A DNA stretch of 64,000 nt. Source: Mustelus asterias (taxonomy: Eukaryota). A model generated the notes under the pieces. That model saw nothing but the letters and a program-made list of their open reading frames with translations, did not search any database and had not been told where the DNA came from. The stretch covers positions 12,524,001 to 12,588,000 of the forward strand of contig NC_135825.1 of assembly GCF_964213995.1 (NCBI RefSeq), given 5' to 3'. Every line of letters starts with the position of its first letter. Positions within the stretch are counted from its first letter, which is position 1. Shown piece by piece: positions 6,279-62,848 of the stretch. The position numbers and the translations under genes were made by a program.

Positions 6279-6318
6279 ATGATGTGGATTTTGATTCTCC
6301 TCATTTGCTCTCTGCCCG
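6279..6318 (+). CDS. Gene 1 exon 1, signal peptide MMWILILLICSLP
   Basis: ATG, hydrophobic leader, phase-1 donor G|GTGAGT. Nearly identical to 40444-40480. Confidence 0.88.
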
Positions 6319-61400: not shown

Positions 61401-62848
61401 CCTGACGCAAAGGGGGAATTTACCATGGTTAATCAACCTAACCCGCACATCTTTGGACTGTGAGAGGAAACCAGATGAATCCCACGCAGACACAGAGAGA
61501 ATGTGCAAACTCCACACAGACAGTCACCCAGAATGTAAAATTTATTACCATAAAAGTTACCATAAATGCATTCAGATGGAAGCTGGATAAGCGAGCAAAG
61601 AATAGAAATATATGTTGAACAGGTTACAATCAAGATCATGGAACCATAGAACCCCTACAGTGCAGAAGGAGGCCATTCAGCCCATTGAGTTGACTCTCTG
61701 AAATAGCATCTTACCCAAGCCCACCCCCCTTGCCCTATCCTCGTAACCCTGTGCATTTACAATGGCCAATCCACCTAATCTACAGACCTTTGGACACTAA
61801 GGGGCAATTTTATCATGACGAATCCACCTGCACATCTTCGGACTGCGGGAGGGAACCGGAGGACCCGGAGGAAACCCATGCAGACACGGGGAGAATGTGC
61901 AAACTCCACGCAGTCACCCAAGACCGGAATTGAACCCCAAGTCCCTGGTGCTGTGAGGCAACAGTGCTAACCACTGTGCCACCGTGCCGCCCAGTATTGA
62001 GAAGAACAACAATGAAAGTCACTTTGACATGATTTTTAAAAATTCATTCACAGGATGTGAGCGTCACTGGCTGGTCCAGCATTTATTGCCCAACCCTAAT
62101 TGACTTTAACTGAGTGGTTCACTAGGTTATTGCAGAGGACATTTAAGAAACAACCAATTGCTGTGGCTCTGGAGTCAGATAAGGATGGTAGATTTCCCTC
62201 CCTAAAGGGCATTTGTGAACCAGATGTTAGTTTTAAATGACAATTGATTCAAGGTCATCATAAGAATTTTAATTCCAGATTTTTGCTCAAATCACCATCT
62301 GCTGTGGTGAGATTCGAACGAGAATCCCCAGCGAATTACGTTCAGTCACTGGATTACTAGCCCAGCGACAATACCACTACGCCACTGCAATTGCTTGTTG
62401 CTGTGCTGTAAATATCTTTAAACATTTTGCAATACTTCATAACCTGATTTGTAATAATTGATAAATAATTTCCTTCTCAAGCCATCACTCAGGTTAATCA
62501 GAAATAAATAAATGTGATTTTTCTTTGTTATTTTAGCAGTTGGCAGCATTGGAAGAGAGCATTGTGTATGCAAAGATAAACCACACTCAAAGGAACGCAG
62601 CAGGAATGCACAGAGAGGGAAACGCCCCGTTGGATAATGATGAAATCACATATGCAGCAGTGCAGTTTCAGAACAACACGTCTACACGGAGAGGTGAAGT
62701 GTCACGTCACTCAATTAACAACCCAGACAGTGTCATCTACAGCGCCGTCAGCATTCCGAGCCAGCCAGCACAGAGAAACCCAGAGACTCCAAGACTGGAC
62801 ACTCCACAGGAATCCGAAATGACAATTTATGCTAACTTCACTCATTAG
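40444..62848 (+). CDS. Receptor gene 2 (spliced, 7 exons: 40444-40480, 44004-44315, 50491-50811, 52194-52308, 55866-55951, 60957-61009, 62537-62848): paralog of gene 1, ~411 aa
   Basis: Same exon architecture and phases as gene 1. Exons sum to 1236 nt with an open frame. The assembly gap at 48995-49152 is intronic. Confidence 0.9.
41085..41700 (-). mobile_element. CR1 LINE 3' end(s) in gene 2 intron 1
   Basis: ORF 41307-41690: YEERLSRLGLYSLEFRRLRGDLIETYKI...QRVVNLWNSLP. Confidence 0.9.
41777..42117 (+). mobile_element. tRNA-derived V-SINE/HE1-like SINE, tail type A, CR1-like (further copies: 1570-1919-, 8180-8505-, 11835-12128-, 22243-22578-, 28050-28365+, 29315-29485-, 45125-45470+, 46412-46616-, 47175-47495-, 61285-61530-, 61645-61992-, 63118-63285+)
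   Basis: Same head and core as type B. Tail gggccaaatggcctccttctgcactgtaggg(attctatg)n resembles the 3' ends of the CR1 copies. Confidence 0.88.
44004..44315 (+). CDS. Gene 2 exon 2, CD300/pIgR-type V-set Ig domain
   Basis: Acceptor tctcctcag|. Motifs ITIDCNY, KYWCRGWTRQC, DLRSGDAEWYNCG. Donor G|GTGCGT. Confidence 0.92.
47520..47645. repeat. (GT)n microsatellite
   Basis: Direct reading. Confidence 0.9.
48907..48994. repeat. (CA)n microsatellite abutting the gap
   Basis: Direct reading. Confidence 0.9.
48995..49152. other. Assembly gap (158 N)
   Basis: Run of N. Confidence 1.
50491..50811 (+). CDS. Gene 2 exon 3, C2-type (FCRL-like) Ig domain
   Basis: Acceptor ttccccacag|. About 90% aa identical to gene 1 exon 3. 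Donor G|GTAAGT. Confidence 0.9.
51300..51825 (-). mobile_element. CR1 LINE RT fragment
   Basis: NPDKCEVMHFG, ALERVQKRFTR. Confidence 0.87.
52194..52308 (+). CDS. Gene 2 exon 4, Ser/Thr-rich stalk EPTYSCGVSTTESPTTTHSTSTNINSAGSESSELENDE
   Basis: Same splice sites as 17254-17374, with a frame-preserving 6-nt deletion. Confidence 0.85.
52480..52978 (-). mobile_element. CR1 LINE 3' end with a ~125-bp MITE inserted at ~52658-52783
   Basis: Similar to 4839-5220. The insert has gggtgggattttcc...gggaaaattcaaccc termini. Confidence 0.72.
54258..55665 (+). mobile_element. 5'-truncated Penelope-like element with ~230-bp inverted terminal repeats, in gene 2 intron 4
   Basis: RT C-terminus (PYGQALRIHRICS) and GIY-YIG region (NVVYLIRCRKGC). 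About 54293-54520 is inverted against about 55440-55668. Flanking direct repeat tgtgtaaattaa. Confidence 0.9.
55572..55608 (+). ncRNA. Minimal type I hammerhead ribozyme motif (inverted copy at 54353-54389)
   Basis: cac-CTGAAGA-a-ggagc(ttaag)gctcc-GAAA-gc-TT-gtg. Confidence 0.62.
55866..55951 (+). CDS. Gene 2 exon 5, transmembrane SLVFIVVGVLGGIFAVFAVSLLLYLKINK
   Basis: cacag| acceptor and G|GTGAGT donor. Frame-preserving 3-nt difference from gene 1. Confidence 0.88.
56555..56855 (+). mobile_element. CR1 LINE 3' end
   Basis: SKTRGHRFEV...FTKRVVSVWNKLP. Confidence 0.82.
58633..58885. mobile_element. Palindromic Penelope-type terminal-repeat remnant (second family)
   Basis: aaccaaaagagaaaatgctggaaaatctcagcagg inverted against cctgctgagattttccagcattttctcttttggtt. 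Same family as 12388-12612, 19945-20036 and 49395-49490. Confidence 0.65.
59503..60220 (+). mobile_element. Probable solo LTR in gene 2 intron 5 (contains a ~90-bp Penelope fragment at ~59800-59885)
   Basis: TG...CA termini flanked by direct repeat AATTAA (59497-59502, 60221-60226). AATAAA at 60053. No counterpart in gene 1. Confidence 0.6.
60452..60793 (-). mobile_element. Rex1/Babar-type LINE 3' end (related degenerate copy at ~20548-20930)
   Basis: KAASIIKDPAHSGYSLFHLLPSGKRYKSLRSRTNRLKNSFF. (tttga)n tail. Confidence 0.75.
60957..61009 (+). CDS. Gene 2 exon 6, juxtamembrane GSSGILCHRRDKTLHDNQ
   Basis: tttttcag| acceptor, |GTAAGG donor, 53 nt. Confidence 0.83.
62537..62848 (+). CDS. Gene 2 exon 7, cytoplasmic tail with three ITIMs and terminal TIYANF
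   Basis: ORF 62540-62848. Three aa differences from gene 1 exon 7. Confidence 0.9.
   Translation, partial: QLAALEESIVYAKINHTQRNAAGMHREGNAPLDNDEITYAAVQFQNNTSTRRGEVSRHSINNPDSVIYSAVSIPSQPAQRNPETPRLDTPQESEMTIYANFTH

What the first reader, a model, noticed from the sequence alone, without database searches (positions are those of the whole stretch)
6279..62848. Tandem pair of intact 7-exon inhibitory CD300/pIgR-like receptors hidden across ~57 kb
Seen: two complete genes with identical intron phases (1,1,1,2,1,0). Four of the seven exons (leader, stalk, TM, juxtamembrane) are absent from the ORF track, and all indels between paralogs preserve frame. Homology extends beyond the CDS (~840-28660 vs ~38820-63670), so this is a segmental tandem duplication with about 35-38 kb period. 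Known: CD300/pIgR/TREM-type receptors form clusters with inhibitory and activating members, and skate MDIRs are a described cartilaginous-fish family of this type. Inference: this is part of an expanding elasmobranch immune-receptor cluster. Both members here are inhibitory, so activating partners (charged TM, short tail) may lie in flanking windows.
Basis: partly seen in the sequence, partly recalled or inferred. Interest (0 to 1): 0.8.

Follow-up and report, generated by a model that had tools for sequence, protein, structure and literature searches.

The report
Shark paired immune receptor brake genes
Two intact shark genes encode likely "brake"-type immune-cell surface receptors of a family already known from skates, and one has likely "accelerator" neighbours with an almost identical binding tip, so they are real but mainly add members to a known kind of system.

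Summary
Both 7-exon models are real: GT-AG splice sites, phases 1,1,1,2,1,0, open frames of 417 and 411 aa. Each reads leader, CD300/pIgR-type V domain, FCRL-type C2 domain, stalk, uncharged TM and a tail with three ITIMs. They belong to the MDIR family: 44-45% identical to skate MDIR3 over its last module. They close a core cluster with 7 inhibitory-type and 12 NxxR activating-type TM exons.

(2) Both V domains keep most of the Ca2+/phosphocholine site of mouse CD300lf. (3) A public model fuses three genes and omits A's TM and tail. (4) The genome has an FcR-gamma-like exon. (5) The cluster is not at the CD300-type locus by two markers.

No RNA evidence was obtained. This scan already noted the cluster on neighbouring DNA. 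New members of a known kind; interest 0.33.

The parts
6279..6318 (+). Gene A exon 1, leader (phase 1)
   Evidence: same leader at 22 places in the cluster
9780..10094 (+). Gene A exon 2, V-set Ig domain of CD300/pIgR type with a second C-C' cysteine pair and the FG-loop G-L-D-P-M
   Evidence: boundaries as in public model P0011
9644..10003 (+). Core of an exon-limited homogenisation tract shared with activating gene Y2 (356 of 360 nt identical)
14635..14958 (+). Gene A exon 3, FCRL-like C2 Ig domain (five Cys); 324 of 324 nt identical to activating gene X
17254..17374 (+). Gene A exon 4, Cys-containing strand then S/T-rich stalk (phase 2)
20291..20379 (+). Gene A exon 5, transmembrane segment with no charged residue in the hydrophobic core
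   Evidence: 19-residue hydropathy 3.4
22998..23050 (+). Gene A exon 6, juxtamembrane (phase 0)
24787..25098 (+). Gene A exon 7, tail with ITIMs at Y325, Y353, Y382 and a fourth Tyr Y412; stop codon
24735..25330 (+). Tract homogenised between A and B (tail exon plus start of 3' UTR, 92-100% per 75-nt bin)
1..15176 (+). 5' half of gene A with its upstream region, about 98% identical to G000:C25:12463505-12481512, the 5' half of intact activating gene X
40444..40480 (+). Gene B exon 1, leader
44004..44315 (+). Gene B exon 2, V-set domain (FG-loop G-L-D-P-L)
50491..50811 (+). Gene B exon 3, C2 domain
52194..52308 (+). Gene B exon 4, stalk
55866..55951 (+). Gene B exon 5, uncharged transmembrane segment
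60957..61009 (+). Gene B exon 6, juxtamembrane
62537..62848 (+). Gene B exon 7, tail with ITIMs at Y319, Y347, Y376 and Y406; stop codon

Best explanation
The window holds two separate, intact genes of the shark/skate MDIR family, each a one-V, one-C2 membrane receptor with three ITIMs, which likely act as inhibitory halves of paired leukocyte receptors. Shown by sequence: exon structure, domains, ITIMs, family membership, cluster layout, and near-identity of A's V domain with three intact activating-type neighbours (X, Y1, Y2). Inferred mechanism: (1) the membrane-distal V domain binds a self-surface ligand, most likely a phospholipid head group through a Ca2+ held by the FG-loop Asp as in mouse CD300lf (about 0.4; the ligand is the weakest step). 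(2) The ITIM tyrosines are phosphorylated and recruit SH2 phosphatases such as SHP-1/2, damping activation (about 0.85; established ITIM biology, recalled, not tested). (3) The NxxR-TM, short-tailed neighbours would signal the opposite way through FcR-gamma (about 0.7). (4) Gene conversion and unequal crossing-over keep the V exon matched between inhibitory and activating partners and keep the tail matched between A and B (about 0.8).
For: Splice sites and frames. Each gene has its own leader and its own TM and tail; the core cluster has 22 leaders for 19 TM exons. Single-module proteins annotated in other sharks align over all seven exons and keep all four tail tyrosines (P0080, P0102, P0098, P0089). 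V domain: best solved relatives are pIgR and CD300f. C2 domain: best are FCRL5 and FCRL4. Skate MDIR3 last module is 57% (V) and 69% (C2) identical to A. In the V tree, A groups with activating V exons (support 100/94) and B with other activating V exons. A vs Y2: V exon 310 of 315 nt but C2 289 of 324 (Fisher p 7e-7). A vs B: V 254 of 312 but tail 305 of 312 (p 4e-12). X, Y1 and Y2 are open frames of 512, 299 and 299 aa with W-N-V-I-R-W TMs; NxxR TMs couple to FcR-gamma in Xenopus and mammals (PMC2413239 passages); the genome has an FcR-gamma-like TM exon distinct from CD3-zeta. A's V C-terminal half matches CD300lf chain residues 62-107 over an equal 46-residue span, placing K, G, D, M on Lys94, Gly96, Asp98, Met100 (site residues from PMC6166816 passages). 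That Asp is kept in 79 of 96 N-terminal V domains of relatives against 69 of 156 internal ones (related sequences, not independent).
Against: No transcript evidence: no RNA holder was listed and no reads could be laid. The public model XP_078098257.1 (P0011) reads three genes as one and skips A's exons 4-7; the one tail search found no named protein with A's own tail (3 hits of 103 candidates, weak evidence). A-B dN/dS gives no clear purifying signal (V 0.20/0.28; TM 0.23/0.09 on 12 vs 2 changes). Two CD300lf cleft residues are not kept (Trp89 to Ser or Asn, Gln41 to Thr), the CC' loop is one residue shorter, and the residue mapping rests on aligned ranges, not on a printed alignment. The skate MDIR3 and MDIR5 V domains mostly lack the D-P loop. 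One paper found no FcR-gamma in cartilaginous fish (PMC4016189 passages), and I saw only its TM exon. The direction of the exchanges is not determined.
Confidence: 0.8

Rival explanations
1. The locus works mainly as one long read-through gene, as the public model has it: Y2's leader, then the V-C2 modules of Y2, A and B, then B's TM and tail, with A's 3' exons as a skipped or alternative end.
For: P0011 is built that way. All Ig exons are phase 1-1, so the joins are in frame. Real multi-module MDIRs exist (skate MDIR3 and MDIR5; up to 11 V-C2 modules between one leader and one TM in this cluster).
Against: Y2, A and B each have their own leader, stalk, TM and terminal exon, all intact. The model must skip two complete 3' ends and two leaders. 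Single-module orthologues exist in four other sharks. Predicted models in tandem arrays are prone to fusion (own knowledge).
Confidence: 0.1
2. The receptors bind immunoglobulin (IgM, IgW or IgNAR Fc), acting as inhibitory Fc receptors rather than lipid sensors.
For: The V domain is pIgR-like and the C2 domain FCRL-like. The cluster shares a contig with SARG/C1orf116, a PIGR neighbour in humans (recalled). NxxR/FcR-gamma coupling is used by the IgA receptor FcalphaR.
Against: The pIgR D1 CDR1 stretch (S-V-N-R-H, seen) is not kept in A or B. The best single-domain scores are to CD300lf, not to any pIgR domain. SARG lies about 8 Mb away. Strong V variation among paralogues (mean 72% vs 87% for C2) fits a fast-changing ligand better.
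Confidence: 0.12
3. Gene A is a silent or decaying copy, and/or the near-identical activating neighbours are a false duplication of two haplotypes in the assembly, so the pairing is partly an artefact.
For: A's 3' half is missing from the annotation found. The upstream repeat is 98-99.5% identical over about 58 kb. No reads could be laid.
Against: A has no lesion in any of 7 exons, and its frame-preserving indels are unlikely by chance. There is no N run across the repeat. Even if one copy were removed, Y and A would remain distinct genes that share only the V tract (81-88% elsewhere).
Confidence: 0.07

Closest known systems
Modular domain immune-type receptors (MDIR) of clearnose skate: MDIR3 ABC86797.1 (P0062), MDIR5 ABC86800.1 (P0060); Cannon et al. 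2006, PMID 16738934 (not held; seen only as a reference entry and through PMC3031540 passages)
   Same: Same leader, V and C2 domain types (A vs MDIR3 last module: V 57%, C2 69%). MDIR3 has an uncharged TM and Tyr-motif tail; MDIR5 has an Arg TM, short tail and V-C2-V-C2 layout like neighbour X.
   Different: A and B have a single V-C2 module, a longer S/T stalk and four tail tyrosines (MDIR3 lacks the first). The skate V domains seen mostly lack the FG-loop D-P.
Mammalian CD300 family, especially mouse CD300lf (CLM-1)
   Same: V domain with a second C-C' cysteine pair, FG-loop K-x-G-L-D-P-M matching the Ca2+/phosphocholine site, ITIM tail, clustered inhibitory and activating genes.
   Different: Extra FCRL-type C2 domain. 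Activating partners use an N-terminal NxxR TM, not the mid-TM Lys for DAP12 (recalled). Tweety and EBP50 markers of the CD300 region map to other contigs.
pIgR, FcamR and teleost PIGRL
   Same: Same V-domain clan; same contig as SARG.
   Different: pIgR has only V domains (PMC4016189); no CDR1 match; ITIM tail. The annotation name 'pIgR-like' reflects similarity only.
Paired receptors with homogenised ligand-binding exons ('merohomogenization': NKG2, Ly49, PIR; PMC3210942, abstract and part 1 of the Discussion read)
   Same: Opposing partners share a near-identical ligand-binding exon while stalk and signalling exons stay distinct.
   Different: Seen here in a cartilaginous fish and in one genome only; no orthologue comparison across species was made.
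Xenopus XFL, LILRA, PIR-A, FcalphaR, GPVI, OSCAR, NKp46 (NxxR TM; PMC2413239 passages)
   Same: The activating neighbours carry N-x-x-R at the start of the TM and a Tyr-free tail; the inhibitory members have uncharged TMs.
   Different: Different ectodomains; the motif may be convergent.

Membership tests
MDIR | V domain of the CD300/TREM/pIgR clan | tested here: met
   50-60% identity to MDIR3/5 V domains
MDIR | MDIR-type second Ig (C2) domain in modular combination with V | tested here: met
   the C2 query retrieves MDIR5 (66%) and MDIR3 (69%); the best 120 of 126 hits listed are all chondrichthyan
MDIR | Multigene family with activating and inhibitory forms (PMC3031540 passage) | tested here: met
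   7 inhibitory-type and 12 Arg-type TM exons in the core cluster, 6 more Arg-type distally
MDIR | Expression as spliced cDNA in immune tissue (recalled from Cannon 2006) | tested here: inconclusive
CD300 | V domain with second C-C' disulfide and lipid/metal cleft | tested here: met
   Cys pairs invariant in 13 of 13 aligned V exons; K/G/D/M, Tyr and Arg match, Trp and Gln do not
CD300 | Single Ig domain ectodomain (recalled) | tested here: not met
   V plus C2
CD300 | Locus linked to TTYH2 and NHERF1 (recalled human 17q25 order) | tested here: not met
   Tweety hits (24 matches) and EBP50_C hits (2) are all on contigs other than C25; flanks are a transducin/Gi-alpha pair and an AdoHcyase gene
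pIgR | All-V ectodomain with D1 CDR1 Ig-binding motif and no ITIM tail | tested here: not met
   PMC4016189 passages
pIgR | Binding and transcytosis of polymeric Ig | not testable with these tools
   needs binding assays
Paired receptor with merohomogenization | Opposing partner with near-identical ligand-binding exon but distinct stalk, TM and tail | tested here: met
Paired receptor with merohomogenization | Shared ligand and opposite signalling shown by experiment | not testable with these tools
   none
ITIM inhibitory receptor | (I/L/V/S/T)xYxx(I/L/V) motifs in the tail and an uncharged TM | tested here: met
   three motifs per gene; tyrosines conserved in five other chondrichthyans aligned

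The most novel reading that the evidence does not exclude
The co-oriented MDIR genes form a combinatorial receptor array. Because every Ig exon is phase 1-1, read-through splicing would join V-C2 modules from one gene to the activating or inhibitory tail of another, as the public fused model implies. Conversion keeps a Ca2+/phospholipid-sensing tip shared between brake and accelerator, and the nearest accelerator (Y2) has lost the metal-binding Asp, which would tune it to pathogens that mimic lipid. The family also unites a pIgR/CD300 V domain, an FCRL C2 domain and an FcR-gamma-coupling TM on one shark chromosome, a possible relic of the ancestor of these mammalian families.
Probability: 0.1. 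Interest if true: 0.7.

Novelty: new member of a known kind. Interest (0 to 1): 0.33.

Why it matters
The family and the paired-receptor principle are known, so this is not a discovery of kind. Its value is practical. It corrects a fused public gene model into three genes of opposite signalling type. It gives MDIRs, whose ligand I could not find in the papers held, a concrete test: a CD300lf-like Ca2+/lipid site, with a natural Asp-to-Asn variant in an activating twin that differs from gene A's V domain at only two residues. It also shows ligand-exon homogenisation and an FcR-gamma-like adaptor exon in a cartilaginous fish, where a 2014 survey found none.

Tried and rejected
Fold comparison was not obtained. 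The one fold made is of the horn shark relative P0080, not of A or B (mean pLDDT 68, Ig domains mostly 85-97).

Rejected: that activating members systematically lose the metal-binding Asp (30 of 37 inhibitory vs 28 of 34 activating first V domains, p 1.0; in this cluster 7 of 7 vs 9 of 12, p 0.26). Not shown: positive selection on V between A and B (dN/dS about 0.7). Extra Ig exons inside A or B: none found by tblastn; conserved intron blocks at 12625-13068 and 19010-19516 have no open frame shared by both copies that looks like an exon. CD300 synteny was rejected on two markers only; the IL10 marker search rang nowhere and is uninformative. Flank scans were partial: 150 of 183 left-flank ORFs, and 131 chosen ORFs from the right flank and inner gaps. 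The Gi-alpha and transducin paralogue names are not resolved (one search returns Gi1 structures).

Papers not held: Cannon 2006, Cannon 2010, Kortum 2014. Searches for a shark MDIR/pIgR-like cluster paper returned nothing on this cluster, but most subscription papers are not searched. No supplements were read.

Full report
Observation. Self-comparison and translation of the window located all exons, and a script spliced them by coordinates. Gene A (6279-25098, 417 aa) and gene B (40444-62848, 411 aa) each have seven exons, GT-AG introns, phases 1,1,1,2,1,0 and no internal stop. Coding indels are all in frame, against 12 of 49 non-coding indels. The A-B homology is patchy, about 73-88% in non-coding blocks, with offsets of about 34-38 kb.

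Anatomy. Exon 2 is a V-set domain. Its closest solved relatives are pIgR and CD300f, then CD300a/c and TREM2, and it has the second C-C' cysteine pair. Exon 3 is a C2-type domain closest to FCRL5 and FCRL4. A fold of the horn shark relative P0080 predicts V, C2, an extra two-strand hairpin that crosses the exon 3/4 boundary, a TM helix and a disordered tail. The TM has no charged residue in its core. The tail has three ITIMs and a fourth C-terminal tyrosine, and all four tyrosines are kept in five other chondrichthyan proteins aligned.

Family. The C2 query returned 126 proteins; the 120 listed are all from sharks, rays, skates and a chimaera, and include skate MDIR3 and MDIR5. A is 44% identical to MDIR3 over 407 aligned residues (V 57%, C2 69%) and 66-67% to single-module proteins of horn shark and catshark over its whole length. 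MDIRs are described as a multigene activating/inhibitory family similar to CD300, TREM, FCAR and pIgR (PMC3031540 passages); the original paper was not held. The public model XP_078098257.1 from Mustelus asterias contains B residues 13-411 and A's V and C2 letter for letter, preceded by the leader, V and C2 of an upstream gene. It omits A's stalk, TM and tail. A tail search found only that model and two other sharks.

Cluster. The window is G000:C25:12524001-12588000. In 1.26 Mb around it there are 71 V, 55 C2, 22 leader and 25 TM hits. The core (11.85-12.59 Mb) has 7 inhibitory-type and 12 Arg-type TM exons, about one leader per TM, and genes of 1 to 11 V-C2 modules. Only three of the seven inhibitory-type genes keep the full four-tyrosine tail; A and B are two of them. 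The three genes directly upstream are intact activating-type receptors: Y1 and Y2 (299 aa, V-C2) and X (512 aa, V-C2-V-C2), each with N-V-I-R at the TM start and a short tyrosine-free tail. NxxR TMs associate with FcR-gamma in Xenopus and mammals (PMC2413239 passages). The genome has two zeta-family TM exons, one closest to FcR-gamma and one to CD3-zeta, although PMC4016189 (passages) reported no FcR-gamma in cartilaginous fish.

Pairing and mosaic history. In a tree of 53 core V exons plus skate MDIR domains (rough supports, few columns), A's V groups with X, Y1 and Y2 (95-98% identity) and B's with other activating genes (83-89%); A and B share only 69%. A and Y2 agree at 356 of 360 nt across the V exon core but only 81-88% elsewhere; V against C2 gives p 7e-7. 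X carries A's first 15 kb at about 98%, joined to an activating 3' half, within a tandem repeat of about 58-60 kb. A and B show the reverse pattern: V dS 0.28 but tail dS 0.02, with a sharp tract of about 600 nt. This matches ligand-exon homogenisation in mammalian paired receptors (PMC3210942, abstract and part of the Discussion). Direction and timing are not resolved, and a false duplication upstream cannot be excluded without reads, though there is no gap across it.

Likely ligand. In mouse CD300lf a Ca2+ is held by Lys94, Gly96 and Asp98, and phosphocholine sits in a cleft of Cys36-Cys44, Met100, Tyr34, Trp89, Gln41 and Arg42 (PMC6166816 passages). A's V C-terminal half matches CD300lf 62-107 over an equal 46-residue span, which puts K, G, D and M on 94, 96, 98 and 100. 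The Tyr before the C-C' pair and the Arg two residues before the second Cys are also present; Trp and Gln are not. B keeps G and D. The Asp is in 79 of 96 N-terminal V domains of relatives but 69 of 156 internal ones (not independent samples). Y2 differs from A's V at two residues, one being this Asp to Asn, but activating members do not lose it in general. A Ca2+-dependent lipid ligand is therefore the best guess (about 0.4), not a result.

Synteny. The cluster is flanked by a tail-to-tail transducin/Gi-alpha pair and an AdoHcyase gene. SARG lies on the same contig about 8 Mb away; Tweety and EBP50 hits are elsewhere. From recalled human gene order this points to the 1p13/1q32 linkage group rather than the CD300 region, on few markers. 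It argues against one-to-one orthology with CD300 or pIgR.

What is missing.

Verdict. Real, intact, likely inhibitory MDIR genes with activating twins. The family, the paired principle and the cluster (earlier notes of this scan) are known. The corrected models, conversion tracts and testable lipid site give modest interest: 0.33, new member of a known kind.

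Noticed in passing
window 32918-37595: Complete Ty3/Gypsy-type LTR retrotransposon between the two genes: one 1380-aa stop-to-stop frame on the minus strand with protease, RT, RNase H and integrase and no envelope family hit, identical 273-bp LTRs and a 5-bp target duplication. All 40 LTR matches scored genome-wide (of 1115 candidates; two are the window's own) are listed at 100%, which indicates a very recent burst.
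   Followed up: partly
G000:C25:12019850-12081460 (L071-L076): One leader, 11 V and 11 C2 exons (one V with stops), one inhibitory-type TM and a two-ITIM tail: a receptor gene of up to about 22 Ig domains. Its repeated internal V domains lack the FG-loop Asp.
   Followed up: partly
G000:C25:12107000-12281000: Five near-identical 35-37 kb units (98.5-99.9%); one ends in an inhibitory-type TM and four in activating-type TMs, and the inhibitory unit's first V is identical to two activating ones.
   Followed up: partly
G000:C275:471050-471133 (L142): FcR-gamma-like TM exon in a shark, distinct from the CD3-zeta-like exon on C17; a 2014 survey (PMC4016189) reported none in cartilaginous fish.
   Followed up: partly
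G000:C25:12698999-12701202 (L032): Two adjacent V exons without C2; the first has V-N-R in its CDR1-like loop, aligned to V-N-R-H of pIgR D1. It scores higher against pIgR than gene A's V does and is a candidate Ig binder.
   Followed up: partly
G000:C25:20024521-20024985 (L124): A lone, divergent V exon of the same clan about 0.64 Mb from SARG; possible pIgR/FcamR/TREM-like singleton.
   Followed up: partly
G000:C25:12393116-12394164 (L007-L008): Orphan leader joined directly to sequence 90% like gene A's juxtamembrane exon and intron 6: apparent remnant of an inhibitory gene deleted between its leader and tail.
   Followed up: partly
window 12625-13068 and 48074-48495; 12725-12923 repeated at 13455-13653: Intron block 88% conserved between A and B, higher than most flanking blocks and internally duplicated in A; no shared exon-like frame; possibly regulatory.
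   Followed up: no
window 20291-20379 vs 55866-55951: TM exons of A and B differ by 12 non-synonymous and 2 synonymous changes; unexplained, small numbers.
   Followed up: no
L127:7123-9954 (minus strand): 944-aa open frame with decapeptide repeats at the right edge of the cluster, next to the AdoHcyase gene; possibly a mucin-like exon.
   Followed up: no
window 30874-31989 and 54291-55670: Related transposon-like fragments (80% identical, opposite orientation), the second with 230-bp inverted ends at 96% identity.
   Followed up: no
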